Of a stretch of DNA of 22,307 bases, positions 1,434 to 9,410 are shown in pieces. The stretch lies in the IMG/VR virus record IMGVR_UViG_2851949629_000003; one strand, 5' to 3'. The position numbers and the translations under genes are program-made. The stretch's first letter is position 1; the number at the start of each line of letters is the position of its first letter. The notes below the pieces were generated by a model that was not told the origin of the DNA, did not search any database, and saw only the letters and a program-made list of their open reading frames with translations. Source of the stretch: a virus. Its lineage: Duplodnaviria > Heunggongvirae > Uroviricota > Caudoviricetes.

Positions 1434-1889
1434 ATGGTCTTTGCAATGAGCAAATCTAATCTGGTCGCGTTCCGCATCCCATCTGAATTGCAGGATGAGT
1501 TTAATCGGTCTGTTCTCGCTTCTGGAGGGGATAAAACCTCCTGGCTTGTTGATGCGATTCGCATGAAGCTGGGACAGCCGGAAAAGTCTATTGATTCACG
1601 AATGCTTGGGCTGGTGGAGCGCATGGAAAAAGCCGCTGCGTCGCTTATTGCCGGAAAGCCGAACATCCCACCAAAGCCATATAACGAAACGGCAGTTATA
1701 AAGATCATTGCCGATACCATCCGACAGGGATTTGATAATGGGCGCGTGATAGCTGAACGGATCAATGAAGCAGGCTATCAAACAAAAGCTGGTAAAGCGT
1801 GGGATAAAGATATTTACAGCGCGTGGAAGCGTCAGGGAAGCAATGCTGAAAAGTTAAAAGCGGTGATTGATTGTAAGGTCAGCGTATAA
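1434..1889 (+). CDS. Putative ribbon-helix-helix (Arc/Mnt/CopG-like) DNA-binding protein with C-terminal extension (151 aa; alternative start at 1446)
   Basis: N-terminal pattern VAFRIPSELQDEFNRSVLASGGDKTSWLVDAIRMKL fits a beta-strand/helix/helix RHH layout. Preceded by the palindromic operator. Family not confirmed by search. Confidence 0.55.
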   Translation: MVFAMSKSNLVAFRIPSELQDEFNRSVLASGGDKTSWLVDAIRMKLGQPEKSIDSRMLGLVERMEKAAASLIAGKPNIPPKPYNETAVIKIIADTIRQGFDNGRVIAERINEAGYQTKAGKAWDKDIYSAWKRQGSNAEKLKAVIDCKVSV

Positions 1890-1968: not shown

Positions 1969-2190
1969 ATGAAAGGCAGAACGCCACACATTGAACATCA
2001 AGCCAACCACTTCTCGGATGTTCGCAATGAGATGATTGCCATTCGCGGTGATATGCACGGCTTGGAGCGTCGAATTATTGATAAGATTGATGAAAATAGA
2101 GATAAGGCCAGTGAAAATCAAAAGTGGATCATCGGCCTGTTGATTTTATCAATGCTTATCCCGCTACTTATCGCATTGGTCACAAAATGA
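1969..2190 (+). CDS. Small membrane protein, XhlA-like (73 aa): N-terminal coiled-coil-like region and one C-terminal transmembrane helix
   Basis: ATG at 1969 with GGTGAGGA Shine-Dalgarno. C-terminus NQKWIIGLLILSMLIPLLIALV is a hydrophobic helix. Overall layout resembles the XhlA family as recalled. Confidence 0.5.
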   Translation: MKGRTPHIEHQANHFSDVRNEMIAIRGDMHGLERRIIDKIDENRDKASENQKWIIGLLILSMLIPLLIALVTK

Positions 2191-2218: not shown

Positions 2219-2597
2219 CGCGCGCGTACTTGTCGCAAAATATCAGACAAAAGCCAGATTCAGAACGTCGTGATAACCACCAGCACAACAGAGAGGTCAT
2301 GTAACGCGATTTATCACACCAGATACATGTGATTGGTGTACCCGCATAAAACATCGTCATAGCGCGTCCTGTGCGCATATACGCCGATAATCAACACATC
2401 ACCACCACTCTGTCTCGTGTAGAAAACAGTTTCATGGTATCCCCCGCCATCGTGTGCGTACTGGTCGGACGCAGTTGCAAAAAATTTTGCAACTGATACC
2501 CCTCGCGCGCGTACTGGTCACGAAATTGGTGTTTTGCTGTGGCAGTGATATCAGAAAAATCTTGCTGTTTCACATAAAGCGGATATGCGCGTACTGT
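2219..2597. repeat. Five dispersed copies of a GCGCGTACTGT-like motif in the gap between the XhlA-like gene and the membrane-protein gene
   Basis: CGCGCGCGTACT at 2219-2230 and 2504-2515; GCGTACTGGTC at 2456-2466 and 2509-2519 (identical 11-mers); GCGCGTACTGT at 2587-2597; GCGCGTCCTGT at 2362-2372. TACGCGCGCGTA (2218-2229) is a perfect palindrome. Confidence 0.4.
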
Positions 2598-2693
2598 AAC
2601 GGCCCCATCAACGGGGATCGGATTTGAAATCCCGACCCAAGCTATGTACCAAATGCCATGTCTTGGATATATGATGATTGCCATTCTAAACAA
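2391..2693 (-). CDS. Doubtful hypothetical ORF (100 aa from a TTG start; 97 aa from ATG at 2684)
   Basis: No convincing Shine-Dalgarno. Its start is only ~26 bp from the divergent 2711 start. The repeated DNA motif falls in three different reading frames of this ORF, which argues it is non-coding. Confidence 0.2.
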   Translation of the reverse strand: MFRMAIIIYPRHGIWYIAWVGISNPIPVDGAVTVRAYPLYVKQQDFSDITATAKHQFRDQYAREGYQLQNFLQLRPTSTHTMAGDTMKLFSTRDRVVVMC

Positions 2694-2710
2694 CGCTAAA
2701 GGGGGTTGGT

Positions 2711-3325
2711 GTGAGCAGAAAAGATACTAAAGAATTGCTAACTATCTGCATGGTGTACTTTTCAATTTATTTTTGTGCATACATGATAGTCCCAGATGAG
2801 TTTGAACATGGCAGTATTATTTATTCCATAACATTCTATTTTTTAGAGCTAACACCAATTTTGGCTATCCTTTTGGCAATACATATTTATTTTTCCTTAA
2901 AAAAAGAATCGACTAATTGGGGGAAGGTATGGAGAGACAGAGGATTTCTAACATCACCTAAAGATGATGCATATGAGAGTGATTTTTCTGACTTTATAAC
3001 AAACTACTACTCCAGCGAACAATTCAAAAATAGACTGTCTGATGTTTGGGAAACAGCAATGTATTCCATAGGGATTATATTATTGATACTTACTGGTATT
3101 GCTCAATATGTTTTTAACATTAACTTATCATTAAATCCTGAAAATTTAATATCGCCATTGATTTTTGGTGAGATATTGATCTTCTCATTCGGAATTTTCT
3201 TGAGTGTTGTTCTCTGCTCATTATGCAAACTACTGACTAACAGGTATCCAGGTGAAGCAAGGAGAGCAAGAAAGGCAAATCCATATTATCTTTTATTTCC
3301 TAATGGAGACAGCAGAGATATCTAA
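2711..3325 (+). CDS. AT-rich integral membrane protein with four predicted transmembrane helices (204 aa); function unknown, candidate exclusion/defence effector
   Basis: GTG at 2711 preceded by AAAGGGGG (2698-2705). Roughly one-third G+C by eye, against ~50% or more in the flanks. Four long hydrophobic segments separated by a charged loop. Convergent with the split gene ending at 3344. Confidence 0.7.
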   Translation: MSRKDTKELLTICMVYFSIYFCAYMIVPDEFEHGSIIYSITFYFLELTPILAILLAIHIYFSLKKESTNWGKVWRDRGFLTSPKDDAYESDFSDFITNYYSSEQFKNRLSDVWETAMYSIGIILLILTGIAQYVFNINLSLNPENLISPLIFGEILIFSFGIFLSVVLCSLCKLLTNRYPGEARRARKANPYYLLFPNGDSRDI

Positions 3326-3343
3326 GCCATCCATGGCTACCAG

Positions 3344-4522
3344 TTATTGAGCTTCTTTTTGTGATGCCTGTGCGACTCTGGTGAGCGATTGTGTGACCGT
3401 ACTGATCGCTCTGTCATATGCTGTGCTACCTTTTGGCGTATTTGCCAAACGTAACAAGGCATTTCGTATAACAGGGCTTTCGTATGCCTTCGCGGCTCCG
3501 CCTACGGCACCAGCAGCAGGAACAACAAACGCAGCCGTTTTTAGCATCCCCGCTAATACTGCTGCGTTTATGATGCCACCACCAACTAACAATCCATAAA
3601 GCTGCTGACCATTTAAGTTTTGAACGTTCGCTTTTGCCGCGTGTCTTGTATCGTTGAGGTATTTAATAACGCCGTCCAGTTCCTTTCCATGTACGCCTTT
3701 AAAGAAAGTTGCTGATTGCTTCCTGTTCCGGTGTAACGCATTAATAAACTTCTCAACACTGATATTTCCAGACGGATCAGTCGCCTTATCTACAGCATTC
3801 TGAACTATGGCTGCTCGTGCGTTTTGCCTACCATTGTCATCCAGAAGCCTGTAAAGCTGAGAACGTTCTGATGGGCTTTGGCTAAAAACGAGTTTTGTTA
3901 CATCCTCAGGCGTGGCCTTGCCGCTGGCTATTGCCTTTTGAACGCGCGTTCTTCCCATCATGTCATTGAATTTAGACCATGAGCGATCAACCCTTGCCAT
4001 ATTAATGGCTTCGTCTGCTCCAAGATTTTTGGCTACGGCTTTTTTCATATCCGCCGTATATGCCTTGTAGATAATATCGCTGGCTTTCTGGAGCGTATCT
4101 TTATCAACAGTGTCAGATGACGCCATAAACCGCTTTCGAAGATCGGTTCTGTTTTCCCTCGCCAGACGCAGGTCATTTGGTCCGCTGGTGATATCGTCTT
4201 TAAATTGCTGCAAGACTTTTACCGCGGCTCTATCCTGAGATTTACCCGGGCGGCTTAACACAGCAATCTGATTGTCGATAGCTTTTACCGTGTTTGAGAG
4301 ATCGACAGGGGTATCCCCCATAGCGTCAATTATGCGGTTATATCGCTTTCCTGCTGCCTCAATGAATTTTTGTTGCCCTTTAGTCGCAGATTCATAAAGC
4401 TGTTTATCAGAAATGCCACCCAGACCATCGCTAAATGTTCTGACTAAATTTTCTCGTGCTTGTTGTTGATTCAGCCGATTCTTACCGGTTCCAAAAAAAG
4501 GAACTCTTTCGCCTAATGTCTG
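3344..4522 (-). pseudogene. 3' portion (392 codons) of a ~701-codon Q/A-rich gene split by IS66 copy 1
   Basis: The track ORF 3344-4321 stays open upstream with no stop to the IS boundary at 4522/4523. It is in frame with 7063-7989 once the IS and one target-duplication copy are removed. Confidence 0.7.
4515..4522. repeat. Left 8-bp target-site duplication AATGTCTG of IS66 copy 1
   Basis: Identical to 7055-7062, immediately outside the element ends. Confidence 0.85.
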
Positions 4523-4552: not shown

Positions 4553-6166
4553 TTATTTATTGGTGAGTACTACGTTCCATGGCAGGAGTTCGTCAACTCG
4601 GTTGGAAGGCCATTCCGGCAGTACGCTCAGGATATGGCGCAGATACGCTTCCGGATCGATACCGTTCAAACGGCAGGTGCCGATCAGCCCGTACAACAGT
4701 GCTCCACGCTCGCCGCCGTGATCGCTGCCAAAGAACATAAAGTTTTTCTTTCCGAGACAGACTGCACGAAGCGCTCTTTCCGCAGCATTATTATCCGCCT
4801 CCGCCAGACCGTCATCACTGTAATAACAGAGGACATCCCACTGATTCAGTACATAGCTGAACGCTTCGCCCAGTCTGGATTTTTTCGACAGCGTACCATT
4901 CTTCTCCACCATCCATTCATGCAGCGACGTCAGTAACACTTTGCTTCGCTGCTGCCTGACCGCCAGGCGTTCAGACACCGGCAACCCGCGTATTTCGTGC
5001 TCAATGGCGTACAGTTCACTGATTCGCTTCAGGGCTTCTTCTGCCGTCGCACTTTTGCTGCTGATGTATACATCGTGGATTTTTCGCCGGGCATGGGCCC
5101 AGCACGCAACTTCTGTCAGTGCACCACCTTCACGTTCTGCACTGAACAACCTGTCGTAACCTGTGAACGCATCCGCCTGCAGGATACCCCGGAAGGGGCG
5201 GAGGTGTTGCTCCGGGTGTTTCCCCTGCCGGTTCGGCGAGTACGCGAACCAGACCGCTGGAGGAGATGACGAACCCACATTGCGATCATCCCGGACATAC
5301 GTCCAGATACGCCCTGTTTTCGCCTTTTTCTGACCCGGTGCCAGTACCTTTACCGGTGTGTCATCAGTGTGAACCTTGCGGGTGTTCATTACATAACGGT
5401 ACAGGGCATCATTCACCGGTGTCATTAACTGGCAGCACGCGTCAACCCAGTTGGAGAGTAAGGCCCGGCTCAGTTCGACACCCTGGCGGGCAAAGATTTC
5501 ACTCTGACGATACAGTGGCAGATGTTCGCAGTATTTTCCCGTTAACACGCGGGCAAGTAATCCGGGGCCCGCGATACCACGCTCTATCGGGCGGGACGGC
5601 GCCGGTGCTTCAACAATACAGTCACATTTTGTACAGGCTTTTTTTACCCGTTCTGTGCGGATCACTTTCAGGGCACTGCTCACCAGTTCCAGCTGTTCAG
5701 CGCTGACTTCCCCCAGATAATCCAGCTCACCGCCACACTCCGGGCAACAGCTTTCTTCTGGCTCCAGGCGGTGTATTTCACGGGGAAGGTGTGCCGGTAA
5801 CGGACGACGATGGCGCGACTGTCGCAACTGGCGGGGAACCTGAGGATCGTCTTCCCGCCCACTGTAACGATCGCTGTCCTGTTCACGTTGTTTCAGCAGA
5901 GCCTCAGCCAGTTCAACTTCACGACGCAGTTTTTCAGAACGGGTACCGAACAGCATCCGGCGCAGTTTTTCTATCTGAGCCCGCAGATGTTCTATTTCCC
6001 GTTCATCTTCTTCGATCTTTTCTTCGGCACGTGTCAGTGCAGAGCGCAGGAAGGCTTCCGTCTCTTCAACCAGACTCAGTTGCTGGTCTTTCTGACGGAG
6101 GGCTTCAGCCTGCTCAGAGAGCAACCTTTCCAGCTCTGCGATGCGAATGAGGTATTTCTGACTCAT
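4553..6166 (-). CDS. tnpC: IS66-family transposase TnpC (537 aa)
   Basis: Long ORF with coiled-coil N-terminus and Cys-rich zinc-finger-like segment (CPECGG...CTKCDC), typical IS66 ORF3 layout. About 90% identical to the second copy. Confidence 0.9.
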   Translation of the reverse strand: MSQKYLIRIAELERLLSEQAEALRQKDQQLSLVEETEAFLRSALTRAEEKIEEDEREIEHLRAQIEKLRRMLFGTRSEKLRREVELAEALLKQREQDSDRYSGREDDPQVPRQLRQSRHRRPLPAHLPREIHRLEPEESCCPECGGELDYLGEVSAEQLELVSSALKVIRTERVKKACTKCDCIVEAPAPSRPIERGIAGPGLLARVLTGKYCEHLPLYRQSEIFARQGVELSRALLSNWVDACCQLMTPVNDALYRYVMNTRKVHTDDTPVKVLAPGQKKAKTGRIWTYVRDDRNVGSSSPPAVWFAYSPNRQGKHPEQHLRPFRGILQADAFTGYDRLFSAEREGGALTEVACWAHARRKIHDVYISSKSATAEEALKRISELYAIEHEIRGLPVSERLAVRQQRSKVLLTSLHEWMVEKNGTLSKKSRLGEAFSYVLNQWDVLCYYSDDGLAEADNNAAERALRAVCLGKKNFMFFGSDHGGERGALLYGLIGTCRLNGIDPEAYLRHILSVLPEWPSNRVDELLPWNVVLTNK

Positions 6167-6196
6167 GACCGTTTTTATAATGCGGTCAGGAGTTTT

Positions 6197-6547
6197 TTAC
6201 AACATTGTCAGTGAGTTACGGCTGGATGTTTTTGGCTGACGCCAGTCCAGCTTATCGAGGAGCATTGCCAGTTGCGAGCGGGTAATGGATACCTTGCCGT
6301 CACGTACCGCAGGCCAGATAAACTGGCCTTCCTCCAGGCGTTTGGTGAACAGGCACAGACCATCAGCATCAGCCCAAAGAATTTTGACGGTGTCACCCCG
6401 TCGGCCACGGAAGATAAACAGGTGACCGGAGAAGGGATTATCATTCAGCACATGTTGTACCTGTTCTCCCAGTCCGTTGAAGGATTTACGCATATCGGTA
6501 ACGCCGGCAACGAGCCAGATACGGGTACCTGATGGGAGTGAGATCAT
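6197..6547 (-). CDS. tnpB: IS66-family TnpB accessory protein (116 aa)
   Basis: Middle ORF of the IS66 triplet. Its start overlaps the tnpA stop (6544-6547). Confidence 0.85.
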   Translation of the reverse strand: MISLPSGTRIWLVAGVTDMRKSFNGLGEQVQHVLNDNPFSGHLFIFRGRRGDTVKILWADADGLCLFTKRLEEGQFIWPAVRDGKVSITRSQLAMLLDKLDWRQPKTSSRNSLTML

Positions 6548-6969
6548 CTTCCCCTCCCGGTCAGTTCACGGATCAACACTGTGAGCAGCTCTGGCGATGG
6601 ATTTTCCAGCGTCATGTTACCGTGACGGAATTCCACCTTGCAGGAACTGGCACTGACTCTGGTCTGAGTGGAAGTGGATAAAGACGGCGCAATGGCCGCC
6701 ACAGGTTCTTTCTGCTCATCCGGCGTTATTTCTACAGGTAATAATTCAACGCCAGTGTCAGAAGAGGTCGTTACCGGAAGACGCCGCGAAACACGCCCTT
6801 CGTTCTGCCAGAGCCTGAGCCATTTGAAAATAACATTATCATTGACGCCATTTTCACGTGCAATCTGTGCAACACAAGCTCCAGGTTGTGATGCCAGTTC
6901 CACCATACGAAGTTTGAATTCATTCGAATAGTTTTTACGAGGTTCTTTTCGCCAGTCCTGTAATTCCAT
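6544..6969 (-). CDS. tnpA: IS66-family TnpA (141 aa, helix-turn-helix)
   Basis: First ORF of the IS66 triplet, with a conserved N-terminal DNA-binding-like segment (FKLRMVELASQPGA...IFKWLRLWQ). Confidence 0.85.
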   Translation of the reverse strand: MELQDWRKEPRKNYSNEFKLRMVELASQPGACVAQIARENGVNDNVIFKWLRLWQNEGRVSRRLPVTTSSDTGVELLPVEITPDEQKEPVAAIAPSLSTSTQTRVSASSCKVEFRHGNMTLENPSPELLTVLIRELTGRGR

Positions 6970-7054
6970 ACTTAGATGTCCGTCTATATCAGATGGGCGT
7001 CTAAGTTACCAATTCTCGTCTGATGGCTACATACGGCGGTCAGTTTACGCTTAC

Positions 7055-7062
7055 AATGTCTG
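7055..7062. repeat. Right 8-bp target-site duplication AATGTCTG of IS66 copy 1
   Basis: Identical to 4515-4522. Confidence 0.85.
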
Positions 7063-7989
7063 AGCCTGACTCTGCATAAAGGTTTTATCTTTCAGCATGT
7101 CACTGGTCATTAACGGCAGATTTCTTTCCGATGCAAAGTCGACAGCAGCCTTTGCTTCAGGCGACATATCACCACGAACAGCCCTCGAAACCGCACTCGC
7201 TGTATTTTCCAGCCCCTTACCAATACCACCAATGCCAGCAGAAATTACCGTTTGTAACGGATCAATATCTTCTCCACCAGCGAGGCTGGTGGCTCCCTGT
7301 AGTGCTAAATCTGTAGCTGCTGATTTCCCTATGGCCCCCAGCACCGTTCCGGCCCTGCCCGCTGGTGTAAACGCCAGCGCATTAGCCAGAAACGATGCCA
7401 CGTCTTGCGGCGATAAACCCGGCTTGTTCAGAGCATAATCACCGGATGGCAGGGAAACGATAGTGTTACCCTTCTCATCCTGCCTTAATTTCGCTCCCAT
7501 GCTCTGAAGAATCTTTTCCTGAGATGCGTCAGAGCCGAAAAGTTGAGACCATCGAGTTTTTAGAGCATCCATGCTGAGTGAGGTTAACTCTGGGGCAAGG
7601 TCGACATTTTGCAGTCTCTCCATCTCTGGAGTCATTCGGCTTTCGCCTGTTATAGCATCGCGCATCGCAGCCCCAAGGCTGGCTCCCTGTTCTGCTGAAC
7701 GCTCAAGCCCCTCTCTTTGCTGAGTAGCTAACTTTGCATACCCTGACGCAAGAGAATTATCAGATGATGTATGTTGAATATTTTGAGTTGCTGATTGGGC
7801 TCGGTCTATTTCATTCGTTGATGGTAGTGGATAGGCAGCATAAAAAGCCTGCTTAGCCTGCTCTACACTTTCTCCGGCTTGCGGGGCAACGACTTCATTG
7901 AAGTATTGCTCCTGAGCCTGCGCTTTTTGTTCTGGTGCTAACGCCTGATACTGTGGAGAAGCGATAACATCTTTCCATGCTTTAGCCAT
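7055..7989 (-). pseudogene. 5' portion (native codons 7063-7989, 309 aa) of the IS-split ~701-codon gene
   Basis: ATG at 7987-7989 overlaps the upstream stop (TAATG). The apparent stop at 7051-7053 lies inside the IS terminus. Frame continues into 4522 when the IS is excised. Confidence 0.7.
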
Positions 7990-9410
7990 TAATCACCCCA
8001 TAGTGAAGAAAAGTTACTGCTGGCTGCTGGCTGTGATACCTGCTCAGATTGCGGCAATGTCTGCGACGAAGAAGAAGTTCCTCTGTCAACTGCTGAAATA
8101 ACCCGCAAAGCATCATAAGCTCGACCAGAAGCAGCTTTCAGCGAATTGAACTGGTTTTCCATCTTCCGGCGCTTGGTATCAATGGTTTTTGTGGAGTCGC
8201 CAGGCTGAGGGAAATACATTTGATAATATTTTGACATTTCAGCAGGTACGATAGCTGCCCCTGTTTCCTGACGGAGTATTGCCATTATTGCGTCATTAGC
8301 ATTAACAACGTATTGCTGCTCTGTTGGGCTGAGCGTTAAGTTAGCCAGCGTCCCATTACCCAAAGCATTATTAATGATCGCCACTCGCTGTGGGCTAAGC
8401 TGGTCTTTCAGTGTATCTATTGAATCAAGAGCATCCCTAACCCTGTATGCAAATCCAGCAGCTTTTTTAGCCCCTTCTGGCGACTTTTCCATGATCTTTT
8501 GGGCTGTTGGCAAAGCTATTGGACGAAACCCATCTCCAGATATTGGCTGGTTTAGTTTTCCCTGCTCTTCACTTCCGTCTGTGTAGTATTTTGTGACAGT
8601 GCCATCATCGTTTTCTCTAACACTCATTAATTTTTTGGCGTTTGTATTAATTCCAGCCGCTGCCGCAAATGCCGCCGCCCCCTCTGGATCCTCCTTTAAC
8701 ATTTGAGCGTACTGATTGTAATTCTGCATTGCTGCTGTTGGTGCATATGCTGACGTTAACGCATTTGCTCGGCTAATATCCTGCCCTCTCGCCTGAAGTG
8801 CTTCGCCAGCCTGATTGCTGCGGATTGTTTCTGCCAACTTGCCACGCTCAATATCCCGACCTTCCATTTGATCTTTGATATCGAAATACTTCTCATGACC
8901 GAGAGAAAACAGTGCCATACTACCAGCAAGCCGCTGGAATCCCTGTGGATCATTAACATGCATTTCGGCAACAGACTCAGGAGAAATTCCCAAGCGACGC
9001 ATTTCATCTTCGTTATCTGCTATGAATTTTCCAAATGCCCCAGTTCCGAGCGAAGATGCGATTTGAGCACTAGTCGCAAGATGACCAATAGAATTTCTCT
9101 GGTCGTCATCAATAAAGCCCATCCCTTTCTGAACGCTTTCAAATTCTTCTGGATACTCAGAAATAAGACTGCGCATTTTGTTTCTGTCTCCAGACTCAAA
9201 AGCCCCGGCATATGCTTTCTGAAACTCTGCTTTACGCTGTTGTTGACGTGCCTGCTGATTAATCTCAGCAACGCCTCTTAGCCCCTGTAGCGCCATTAAA
9301 CCTACGTTTGGCTGCTGCTGATACTGCACAGGCTGAGGAACGGAAGAACGAGGAGCATTATCATTTTGCGGTGCCATGCTAGGCAGCCCGCCAAGTTGCC
9401 ATGTCGCCAT
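7989..9410 (-). CDS. Q-rich low-complexity protein (473 aa); possible phage ejection/DNA-transfer-type protein
   Basis: Coupled to both neighbours by TAATG overlaps at 9410 and 7989. Q/A-rich, coiled-coil-like composition. Family assignment is inference. Confidence 0.75.
   Translation of the reverse strand: MATWQLGGLPSMAPQNDNAPRSSVPQPVQYQQQPNVGLMALQGLRGVAEINQQARQQQRKAEFQKAYAGAFESGDRNKMRSLISEYPEEFESVQKGMGFIDDDQRNSIGHLATSAQIASSLGTGAFGKFIADNEDEMRRLGISPESVAEMHVNDPQGFQRLAGSMALFSLGHEKYFDIKDQMEGRDIERGKLAETIRSNQAGEALQARGQDISRANALTSAYAPTAAMQNYNQYAQMLKEDPEGAAAFAAAAGINTNAKKLMSVRENDDGTVTKYYTDGSEEQGKLNQPISGDGFRPIALPTAQKIMEKSPEGAKKAAGFAYRVRDALDSIDTLKDQLSPQRVAIINNALGNGTLANLTLSPTEQQYVVNANDAIMAILRQETGAAIVPAEMSKYYQMYFPQPGDSTKTIDTKRRKMENQFNSLKAASGRAYDALRVISAVDRGTSSSSQTLPQSEQVSQPAASSNFSSLWGD

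What the first reader, a model, noticed from the sequence alone, without database searches (positions are those of the whole stretch)
2711..3325. AT-rich four-helix membrane protein, a likely recently acquired exclusion or defence effector
This 204-aa ORF has a good ribosome-binding site (AAAGGGGG, then GTG) and stands out by composition: roughly one-third G+C against ~50% or more around it. It has four long hydrophobic helices and no recognisable enzymatic motif. It sits convergent to the last gene of the ejection-protein-like cassette. From memory of P22 gene order (14-7-20-16-sieA-...-mnt-arc-ant-9), that is where P22 carries sieA, a membrane superinfection-exclusion protein, so the placement may be analogous. 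I could not assign a family from the sequence, so it may be an undescribed exclusion or abortive-infection effector.
Basis: partly seen in the sequence, partly recalled or inferred. Interest (0 to 1): 0.75.

Follow-up and report, generated by a model that had tools for sequence, protein, structure and literature searches.

The report
Divergent SieA-type phage exclusion gene
The AT-rich four-helix membrane ORF is a distant, so far unannotated relative of phage P22's SieA superinfection-exclusion protein, so it belongs to a known kind of prophage defence and is not a new one.

Summary
The ORF is real: 2711-3325, + strand, 204 aa, GTG start after a Shine-Dalgarno site. It has four hydrophobic helices and 32.8% G+C, the lowest 615-bp stretch in the window. 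It lies convergent to, and 18 bp from, a gp16-type ejection gene.

It is a divergent member of the SieA family. A clade profile matches experimentally validated type B SieA at 99% HHalign probability over nearly the full length. It keeps both superfamily motifs (YSSEQFKNRLSD, NRYPGEARRARK). Relatives in Citrobacter and two viral contigs occupy the P22 sieA slot (mnt > sieA, convergent with gene 16) in complete P22-like prophages.

The clade (E. coli, Citrobacter, Serratia, Providencia/Proteus) lies outside published types A and B and probably C. It is annotated only as "hypothetical protein".

The likely function is inferred, not shown: an inner-membrane block of DNA injection by P22-like phages. 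Low G+C is a family trait, not evidence of recent acquisition.

In E. coli the gene sits on a ~16-kb integrase/primase/ejection-protein/PerC element. There it is one of three ORF-precise alternative cassettes behind a shared RBS and start codon.

This is a new member of a known kind, of modest interest.

The parts
2400..2715 (+). Conserved upstream flank, presumed to hold the expression signals. It is shared by all three alternative cassettes and runs through the RBS and the GTG start.
   Evidence: It is present in 535 E. coli genomes. Identity with L098 and L099 ends one base after the GTG. The consensus scan finds no sigma-70 match here, but the same scan also misses the annotated P22 PsieA promoter.
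2698..2705 (+). Shine-Dalgarno-like AAAGGGGG. The other cassette versions have AAAGGGAGGG.
2711..3325 (+). sieA-like CDS, 204 aa: a divergent SieA-superfamily inner-membrane protein.
2735..2791 (+). Predicted TM1 (aa ~9-27). This is the extra N-terminal helix, as in SieA types B and C.
   Evidence: paper section read.
2825..2893 (+). Predicted TM2 (aa ~39-61).
3008..3043 (+). Superfamily motif 1, YSSEQFKNRLSD (aa 100-111), at the cytoplasmic end of TM3. N107 and R108 are invariant in 47 sequences.
3044..3121 (+). Predicted TM3 (aa ~112-137).
3152..3235 (+). Predicted TM4 (aa ~148-175).
3236..3274 (+). Superfamily motif 2, TNRYPGEARRARK (aa 176-188). It corresponds to the published SieA motif FxRYPxEAxxFNK and is predicted to be cytoplasmic. 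R178 is invariant and P180 is 98% conserved.
3325..3338 (.). Palindrome AGCCATCCATGGCT immediately after the stop codon. It marks the 3' boundary where homology among the alternative cassettes resumes.
3344..4321 (-). C-terminal fragment of the gp16-type injection protein, convergent neighbour of the ORF. The gene is split by an IS66-family element at about 4553-6969.
7051..7989 (-). N-terminal fragment of the same gp16-type injection protein.
7989..9410 (-). gp20-type ejection protein (Pfam Inj_translocase).

Best explanation
The ORF encodes a four-pass inner-membrane protein of the SieA superinfection-exclusion superfamily. Positive-inside charge distribution predicts both termini in the cytoplasm. 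The protein belongs to a divergent clade found in E. coli, Citrobacter, Serratia and Providencia/Proteus.

By homology with P22 SieA (type A) and E. coli HS1 SieA (type B), it most likely sits in the inner membrane of the cell carrying it. [quoted passage not shown]

Shown here:
- homology
- retention of every superfamily-conserved residue
- hydrophobic architecture
- conserved synteny with gene 16 and mnt in relatives
- purifying selection

Inferred:
- expression
- inner-membrane localisation and topology
- the exclusion phenotype and its target range

A further inference concerns the site of action. The only strongly conserved parts of the superfamily are two short motifs at the cytoplasmic ends of the TM3-TM4 hairpin. 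The critical contact is therefore probably made at the cytoplasmic face of the membrane, not in the periplasm.
For: Homology:
- The clade profile against the type B SieA profile gives 99.0% probability, E=5.7e-18, over 189 aligned columns covering all four TM helices.
- Against P22 SieA it gives 95.5%, E=1.6e-8.
- Pairwise BLASTP gives 33% over 118 aa to HS1 (E=7e-9) and 29% over 108 aa to P22 (E=7e-8).
- Scores against PHROG 7745 'SieA-like' form a graded series: P22 2e-108, HS1 6e-21, the Citrobacter homologue 2e-6 (near full length), the window protein 3.5e-4.

Motifs:
- The published SieA signature is FxRYPxEAxxFNK; the window protein has TNRYPGEARRARK.
- Across 47 superfamily sequences N107, R108 and R178 are 100% conserved, P180 98%, D111 94%, and C172 and A183 91%. 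The window protein has all of them.

Synteny:
- The 49%-identical Citrobacter copy and the 33-34%-identical copies in L012 and L014 lie in complete P22-like prophages, in the order tailspike-ant-arc | mnt > (orf) > gene, convergent with gp16-gp20-gp7. P22 has the same order, 16 > < sieA < orf59a < mnt.
- Two other clade members lie 13 bp downstream of a CI-type repressor, which is another lysogen-expressed slot.

Function of the family: P22 SieA and HS1 SieA are inner-membrane proteins that are sufficient to block DNA injection by P22-like phages. Escape mutations map to gp16 and gp20 (PMC10883804).

Gene integrity and selection.
Against: - No experiment addresses this clade.
- Global identity to the tested proteins is only 13-16%.
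- The flanks of motif 2 differ from the published consensus: T replaces F, and ARK replaces FNK.
- The precomputed Pfam family PF26849, which marks type B and the Morganella/Proteus clade, is not recorded for this protein's cluster.
- No consensus promoter was found, although the scan also misses P22's own PsieA.
- The AlphaFold2 model was too poor (pLDDT 56) for a fold comparison.
- In this window the carrier is not a P22-like prophage. Its own gp16 gene is broken by an IS, so the selective context may differ.
Confidence: 0.7

Rival explanations
1. The protein is a SieA-superfamily member whose specificity or role has diverged. It might exclude a different set of phages. Or it might serve the ~16-kb integrative element, for example by controlling entry of, or competition with, a P22-like helper phage, instead of acting as a classical prophage self-exclusion function.
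For: - The clade is the most divergent branch of the family: 100% bootstrap, outside the A+B+C? group.
- In E. coli it is carried by an integrase/P4-type primase/E-protein/PerC element with no head, portal, terminase or tailspike genes.
- It is interchangeable with two unrelated small envelope proteins at the same slot.
- Some clade members sit after cI instead of in the sieA slot.
Against: - Types A and B are only 21-24% identical, yet they gave indistinguishable exclusion spectra, so divergence alone does not predict a new specificity.
- All superfamily-conserved residues are retained.
- The tight linkage to gene 16 is kept in every context that has E-protein genes.
Confidence: 0.2
2. The gene is a silent or decaying passenger in a degraded island. 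It is intact by chance and has no current function in this strain.
For: - This copy of the element carries two IS66-family insertions, one of which splits the adjacent gp16 gene.
- No promoter or terminator consensus was found.
- A truncated 105-aa variant exists in the databases (P0018).
Against: - The ORF is intact in 102 of 103 E. coli genomes at 95% identity or more, and in every copy examined.
- dN/dS is below 1 (0.08 for L012 vs L014).
- The RBS and start codon are conserved across the alternative cassettes.
- The promoter scan is uninformative, because it misses the known PsieA.
Confidence: 0.06
3. The protein is an abortive-infection or toxic membrane effector that kills or depolarises the infected cell, without blocking DNA entry.
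For: It is a small multi-pass membrane protein in a defence-type slot. Overproduced P22 SieA was reported to slow growth (supplement).
Against: - Single-copy P22 sieA has minimal effect on growth.
- The exclusion phenotype mimics virions that lack E-proteins, which means failure of DNA entry.
- There is no match to any PADLOC model, although PADLOC has no SieA model either.
Confidence: 0.04

Closest known systems
E. coli prophage HS1 SieA (type B; EcHS_A0321 = ECHS_RS01600, 212 aa), shown experimentally to exclude P22-like phages (PMC10883804)
   Same: - Four predicted TM helices, including the extra N-terminal one.
- Both cytoplasmic motifs (YSxExxxNRLSD and NRYPGEAR).
- AT-rich gene.
- Convergent with, and immediately downstream of, gene 16.
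- The HS1 prophage is integrated at thrW, as the window's element is.
- Profile-profile match of 99.0% over 189 columns.
   Different: - Only 16% global identity, or 33% local identity over 118 aa.
- It falls in a separate clade.
- Motif 2 has the flanks T...ARK instead of F...FNK.
- The C-terminal tail is different (PYYLLFPNGD).
- No PF26849 annotation is recorded.
- The carrier is a ~16-kb integrase/primase element, not a full P22-like prophage.
Phage P22 SieA (type A, 162-164 aa)
   Same: - Same slot relative to gene 16, and relative to mnt in the clade's prophage copies.
- RYPGEA is identical.
- The motif FSPERFENRITD corresponds to YSSEQFKNRLSD.
- The TM3-TM4 hairpin aligns.
- G+C is low: 0.337 vs 0.328.
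   Different: - P22 SieA has three TM helices and no cytoplasmic N-terminus.
- Global identity is 13%.
- The window protein is 40 aa longer: about 31 aa at the N-terminus and about 9 aa at the C-terminus.
Morganella / Proteus penneri clade (P0032, P0090), probably the published type C
   Same: About 203 aa with four TM helices, both motifs, and membership of the same superfamily.
   Different: - It groups with types A and B (95% bootstrap), not with the window clade.
- It carries PF26849.
- Motif 2 is F-N-RYPGEA-RV-YNK.
- Global identity to the window protein is 18%.
- Its identity with 'type C' is inferred, not verified.
Lambda RexAB / P22 SieB-type genes downstream of the repressor (positional analogy only)
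   Same: Two clade members (L011, L013) sit 13 bp after a CI-type repressor on the same strand. This is the position of classic lysogen-expressed exclusion genes (the lambda rexAB position is from established knowledge).
   Different: There is no sequence relationship. Rex and SieB act by abortive infection, not by blocking injection.

Membership tests
SieA superinfection-exclusion family (P22 SieA; Leavitt et al. 2024, PMC10883804) | Detectable sequence homology to an experimentally characterised SieA | tested here: met
   HHalign gives 99.0% (E=5.7e-18, 189 columns) to the type B profile and 95.5% to P22 SieA. Pairwise BLASTP gives E=7e-9 and 7e-8. PHROG 7745 gives E=3.5e-4 for the window protein and 2e-6 for its Citrobacter homologue.
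SieA superinfection-exclusion family | Conserved motif FxRYPxEAxxFNK just after the last TM helix, on the cytoplasmic side | tested here: met
   The core RYPGEA is identical and in the same position (aa 178-183, right after TM4). The flanks differ: T176 replaces F, and A186-R187-K188 replaces FNK. Positive-inside charge counts place it in the cytoplasm.
SieA superinfection-exclusion family | Small integral membrane protein with three TM helices (type A), or four with an added N-terminal TM and a cytoplasmic N-terminus (types B and C) | tested here: met
   Four hydrophobic segments. The AlphaFold2 model has helices at 3-26, 33-68, 102-133 and 147-176. The alignment with type B covers all four.
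SieA superinfection-exclusion family | The gene lies between the gene 16 and gene 9 homologues of a P22-like prophage, convergent with gene 16 | tested here: inconclusive
   Met for the clade: the Citrobacter loci L002-L005 and IMG/VR loci L012 and L014 are complete P22-like prophages with the order mnt > gene, convergent with gp16. In the window the gene is convergent with a gp16 homologue, but there is no mnt, ant or tailspike, and the carrier is not a P22-like prophage. Two clade members sit after cI instead.
SieA superinfection-exclusion family | Exclusive inner-membrane localisation | not testable with these tools
   This needs cell fractionation of a tagged protein, as was done for P22 SieA.
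SieA superinfection-exclusion family | Sufficient to block DNA injection by P22-like phages; escape maps to the C-terminal regions of gp16 and gp20 | not testable with these tools
   This is known only for P22 (type A) and HS1 (type B) SieA.
Published SieA sequence types A, B or C | Clusters with the type A (P22) or type B (HS1) reference sequences | tested here: not met
   In the neighbour-joining tree the window clade has 100% bootstrap and lies outside the A+B+C?+Vibrio group (95%). Global identity is 13% to P22 and 16% to HS1. The paper states that E. coli SieA proteins are type A or B.
Published SieA sequence types A, B or C | Clusters with the type C references (M. morganii KT MU9_2893, P. 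alcalifaciens 205/92 HMPREF1563_1315) | tested here: inconclusive
   The reference sequences could not be retrieved; the genome scan found only Arsenophonus. Indirect criteria favour the Morganella/P. penneri clade as type C: the motif is F.RYPGEA..YNK, the N-terminal extension is about 42 aa, and identity to A and B is 19-31%. If type C is instead the Providencia/Proteus branch (P0019), the window protein would be a 28-33%-identical relative of it.
Pfam PF26849 (precomputed on type B and Morganella-clade proteins; name not available here) | A hit to the family model | tested here: not met
   The precomputed Pfam field is '-' for P0001-P0003, but PF26849.1 for all type B and Morganella-clade hits. 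The local Pfam copy lacks this model, since HS1 SieA itself gives no hit, so it could not be rescored.
MnhB/MrpB cation antiporter subunit (housekeeping transporter rival) | Score above the curated threshold | tested here: not met
   Pfam MnhB scores 16.3 bits against a cut-off of 22.5. TIGR00943 scores 14.9 bits against 139.75. These are low-complexity TM matches.
Known anti-phage defence systems (PADLOC-DB v2) | A match to any model | tested here: not met
   There are no hits. This is uninformative for SieA, because P22 and HS1 SieA also give no hits.

The most novel reading that the evidence does not exclude
The gene may be one allele of an ORF-precise, swappable 'exclusion cassette' on a P4-type satellite-like element. 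That element carries P22-type ejection-protein genes but no capsid genes.

On this reading, the element uses SieA-like and alternative small envelope proteins to control entry of P22-like helper or competitor phages. The deep conservation of two cytoplasmic-face motifs would point to a conserved contact at the cytoplasmic exit of the injection conduit. The existence of Aeromonas proteins that fuse the conserved gp16 N-terminal module to a SieA-like module would point to a direct contact between SieA and gp16.
Probability: 0.15. Interest if true: 0.6.

Novelty: new member of a known kind. Interest (0 to 1): 0.3.

Why it matters
- It gives a name and a testable function to a protein that is annotated 'hypothetical' in about 2% of complete E. 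coli genomes. Its relatives in Citrobacter, Serratia, Providencia and Proteus gain the same assignment.
- It extends the SieA family beyond the three published types. BLAST-level searches and the current Pfam family appear to miss this clade.
- The superfamily-wide conservation map shows two cytoplasmic juxtamembrane motifs flanking a variable TM hairpin. This narrows where to look for the unresolved SieA mechanism, and it supplies obvious residues to mutate.
- The three-allele cassette behind a shared RBS and start codon gives a natural isogenic series for comparing exclusion functions.

Tried and rejected
- **Pfam, NCBIfam and PADLOC scans of the ORF.** They returned only sub-threshold TM-type noise (MnhB, DUF1634). 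The negatives are uninformative, because the local Pfam copy lacks PF26849 and PADLOC has no SieA model.
- **tblastn against 50,697 phage genomes at E<=1.** No match, so this clade is absent from sequenced phage isolates.
- **AlphaFold2 with a 20-sequence alignment.** The model had pLDDT 56 and pTM 0.29, too poor for a fold search. I ran no fold search and used only the secondary structure.
- **PDB profile search.** Nothing relevant was found.
- **Two scans of species-representative genomes.** The first found nothing. The second found one Arsenophonus fragment, so the identity of type C could not be settled.
- **Promoter and terminator scan.** It found nothing upstream. Calibration on P22 showed that the scan misses the annotated PsieA promoter, so I drew no conclusion.
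- **Literature searches for a satellite carrying P22-type ejection proteins, and for later SieA typing.** Nothing relevant was found.
- **'Housekeeping transporter' and 'holin' readings.** I rejected both. There is no supra-threshold family hit, and the holin-like PHROG hit belongs to the neighbouring 73-aa ORF, not to this gene.

Full report
**1. Observation**

The ORF at 2711-3325 (+) is real. It has a GTG start, 204 codons and a TAA stop, and it is preceded by AAAGGGGG five bases upstream.

Its G+C is 0.328, against 0.486 for the window. It is the lowest of all 615-bp windows in the 22.3 kb, and all three codon positions are low.

Hydropathy analysis gives four TM-length segments at about aa 9-27, 39-57, 116-137 and 148-172. 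K+R counts are 3 in the N-terminus, 8 in the 62-115 loop and 6 in the C-terminus, and 0 in each of the two short loops. This predicts an N-in/C-in topology.

The gene is convergent with, and 18 bp from, the C-terminal fragment of a gp16-type injection protein (3344-4321, -). That gene is split by an IS66-family element. Its N-terminal fragment (7051-7989) and a gp20-type gene (7989-9410) follow.

The window is identical to E. coli 214-4 (NZ_CP025840), between yagP/paoD and thrW-proA.

**2. What it is**

Standard libraries give nothing significant. The exception is a weak PHROG hit to phrog_7745, 'superinfection exclusion SieA-like' (E=3.5e-4, aa 91-186).

The protein family is narrow. It comprises E. 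coli copies, one 49%-identical Citrobacter freundii protein, and, from an exhaustive profile search, Serratia fonticola (P0017) and Providencia/Proteus (P0019) proteins aligned over their full length.

The Citrobacter copy sits in an intact P22-like prophage. The order is integrase, tailspike, ant, arc | mnt > orf105 > gene, convergent with gp16, then gp20, gp7, needle, gp10, gp4 and coat. Two IMG/VR contigs (L012, L014) with 33-34%-identical copies show the same arrangement.

P22 itself has the order 16 > < sieA < orf59a < mnt | arc > ant > 9. The slot and the orientation are therefore those of sieA.

**3. Homology to SieA**

Leavitt et al. 2024 (PMC10883804) made four points relevant here:

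[quoted passage not shown] Types B and C have an extra N-terminal TM helix.
- The types share a cytoplasmic motif, FxRYPxEAxxFNK, after the last TM helix.

The window protein has TNRYPGEARRARK directly after TM4. It also has YSSEQFKNRLSD before TM3, where P22 has FSPERFENRITD and HS1 has YSNELLANRLSD.

| Comparison | Result |
|---|---|
| BLASTP vs P22 SieA | 29% over 108 aa, E=7e-8 |
| BLASTP vs HS1 SieA (type B, tested experimentally) | 33% over 118 aa, E=7e-9 |
| HHalign, nine-sequence clade profile vs type B profile | 99.0%, E=5.7e-18, 189 columns, spanning all four helices |
| HHalign, clade profile vs P22 SieA alone | 95.5%, E=1.6e-8 |

PHROG 7745 scores fall in a graded series: P22 2e-108, HS1 6e-21, Citrobacter 2e-6, window 3.5e-4. 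Homology is therefore well established.

**4. Position within the family**

A neighbour-joining tree of 25 sequences puts the window clade at 100% bootstrap, outside a group (95%) that contains type A, type B, a Morganella/Proteus penneri clade and a Vibrio protein. The window clade comprises E. coli, Citrobacter, Serratia, Providencia/Proteus, L012 and L013. Global identity of the window protein is 13% to P22, 16% to HS1 and 18% to the Morganella protein. For comparison, A vs B is 21%.

The type B and Morganella-clade proteins carry a precomputed PF26849 annotation. The window protein's cluster does not. The local Pfam copy lacks that model.

I could not retrieve the two type C reference sequences. 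The published description covers the motif, a ~40-aa N-terminal extension and ~25% identity to types A and B. It fits the Morganella clade better than the Providencia branch of the window clade, but this is an inference.

Either way, the paper reports only types A and B in E. coli. All 103 E. coli copies are annotated 'hypothetical protein'.

**5. Mechanism**

The best-supported reading is that the protein inserts in the inner membrane and blocks DNA delivery by superinfecting P22-like phages, by interfering with the gp20/gp16 conduit. This rests on homology to two tested proteins that are themselves only 21-24% identical yet behave identically.

A conservation map over 47 superfamily members adds one inference.

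| Segment | Mean top-residue frequency |
|---|---|
| Motif 1 (aa 100-111) | 0.71 |
| Motif 2 (aa 176-188) | 0.71 |
| TM helices, loops and tails | 0.11-0.39 |

N107, R108 and R178 are invariant. P180, D111, A183 and C172 are at least 91% conserved.

Both motifs lie at the cytoplasmic ends of the TM3-TM4 hairpin, and the periplasmic loop between those helices is short and variable. The conserved contact is therefore probably at the cytoplasmic face, with the membrane-embedded end of the conduit or with a host factor, and not in the periplasm. Expression, localisation and phenotype remain untested.

**6.

- **Low G+C is not evidence of recent acquisition here.** Every sieA-type gene examined is 7-16 points below its flanks: P22 0.337 vs 0.473, HS1 0.363 vs 0.469, Citrobacter 0.380 vs 0.463.
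- **The gene is a stable allele.** It is present in 103 of 5,426 complete E. coli genomes at 95% identity or more. It is intact in all copies examined, with dN/dS of 0.08-0.5 in related pairs, though substitution counts are small.
- **Abortive infection is unlikely.** Single-copy sieA barely affects growth, and the phenotype mimics virions without E-proteins.

**7. Context beyond the finding**

In E. coli the carrier is not a decayed P22 prophage. It is a compact ~16-kb element with the same order at two or more att sites: thrW/yagP in 214-4 and in an O112ab strain, and yicC-dinD in UMNK88. The order is integrase, AlpA-like HTH, AntA/B, DUF4222, ash, TOPRIM-DUF927 primase, gp20-like, gp16-like, then the cassette, two or three small ORFs and PerC.

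The slot itself is a swappable cassette. The upstream flank 2400-2710 occurs in 535 genomes, 450 of them at 80% coverage or more.

| Cassette in the slot | E. coli genomes |
|---|---|
| sieA-like ORF (204 aa) | 103 |
| Unrelated four-TM protein, ~116 aa from the shared GTG | 229 |
| Signal-peptide protein, ~132 aa from the shared GTG (phrog_2651, unknown function) | 126 |

The alignments show identity through the RBS and GTG, divergence from the next base, and rejoining right after the stop codon at the palindrome AGCCATCCATGGCT. This supports the GTG start. It also implies shared expression signals, and it is typical of an arms-race locus.

**8. Other leads**

- Two clade members lie 13 bp downstream of a CI-type repressor, between cI and N.
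- Aeromonas proteins (P0047, 430 aa; also P0037) fuse a segment that is 63% identical (E=1e-20) to the first 54 residues of this window's gp16-type protein onto a SieA-like module. That N-terminal module is conserved in 308 P22-like viral contigs.
- The upstream same-strand orf151 has an N-terminus that aligns weakly with the ribbon-helix-helix domain of P22 Mnt (E=0.001 for the single comparison).

**9. Verdict**

Novelty is that of a new member, possibly a fourth sequence type, of a known exclusion family. Interest is modest. The cassette architecture, the unusual carrier element and the gp16N-SieA fusions are the parts most worth following up.

Noticed in passing
window 887-22307 (whole element); L015 18176-33936; L016 18178-34431: The carrier is a recurrent ~16-kb integrative element found at two or more att sites. 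Its order is integrase, AlpA-like HTH, AntA/B, ash, P4-type TOPRIM-DUF927 primase, P22-type gp20 and gp16 (plus gp7 and a DUF2824 protein in this window), the cassette, then PerC. It has no capsid, portal, terminase or tailspike genes. It may be a satellite-like element associated with P22-like phages. I found no description of such an element in the searchable literature.
   Followed up: partly
window 2400-3345; L098 1700-2260; L099 1700-2350: The slot is an ORF-precise swappable cassette. The flanks are identical up to RBS+GTG and resume from the palindrome AGCCATCCATGGCT after the stop codon. There are three alternative ORFs: sieA-like in 103 genomes, a ~116-aa four-TM protein in 229, and a ~132-aa signal-peptide protein (phrog_2651) in 126. 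The conserved flank occurs in 535 of 5,426 E. coli genomes.
   Followed up: yes
P0047 aa 152-205 vs window 7051-7989 (-) aa 1-54; also P0037: Aeromonas salmonicida proteins fuse a copy of the conserved gp16 N-terminal module to a C-terminal SieA-like membrane module. The shared segment is 63% identical (E=1e-20) and includes the sequence ...AQEQYFNEVVAPQAG.... This is a domain-fusion link between SieA and its presumed target. The N-terminal module alone is present in 308 P22-like viral contigs.
   Followed up: partly
L013 9266-10594; L011 40-1173: Two members of the window clade (199 aa) sit 13 bp downstream of a CI-type repressor on the same strand, between cI and an N-like antiterminator. 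This differs from the gene-16 slot and is the rexAB-like lysogen-expressed position.
   Followed up: partly
window 1434-1889 (+): orf151 lies upstream on the same strand as the sieA-like gene. Its N-terminus (FRIPSELQDEFNRSV...WLVDAIRMKLG) aligns with the ribbon-helix-helix domain of P22 Mnt (27% over 37 aa, E=0.001 for the single comparison). It may be an Mnt/Arc-type regulator. The evidence is weak.
   Followed up: partly
window 2698-2710 vs L098 and L099: This copy has AAAGG--GGG where the other cassette versions have AAAGGGAGGG. The 2-nt difference weakens the Shine-Dalgarno match. It also puts the upstream ATG (2673) out of frame, whereas RefSeq calls that ATG as the start of the other two cassettes (MIAILN.AKGRVGV leader).
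   Followed up: partly
window 4553-6969, and a second copy further downstream (L001 35616-38041): There are two IS66-family insertions (ISEc23-like and ISEc43-like). One splits the gp16-type gene and the other splits the AntA/B gene, so this particular copy of the element is damaged.
   Followed up: no
P0021-P0058 (profile search hits): There is a wider, unannotated superfamily of proteins, mostly 160-180 aa with three TM helices, carrying YSSE..xNRLSD and LT[GN]RYPGEA..xRK. It includes Vibrio proteins and many metagenomic sequences, well beyond the enterobacterial hosts reported for SieA. Their genomic contexts were not examined.
   Followed up: no
window 1969-2190 (+): The 73-aa ORF has a C-terminal TM segment and weak matches to a holin PHROG (E=0.014) and to a SLATT domain (E=0.066). 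Its function is unknown, and it is conserved in the element.
   Followed up: no
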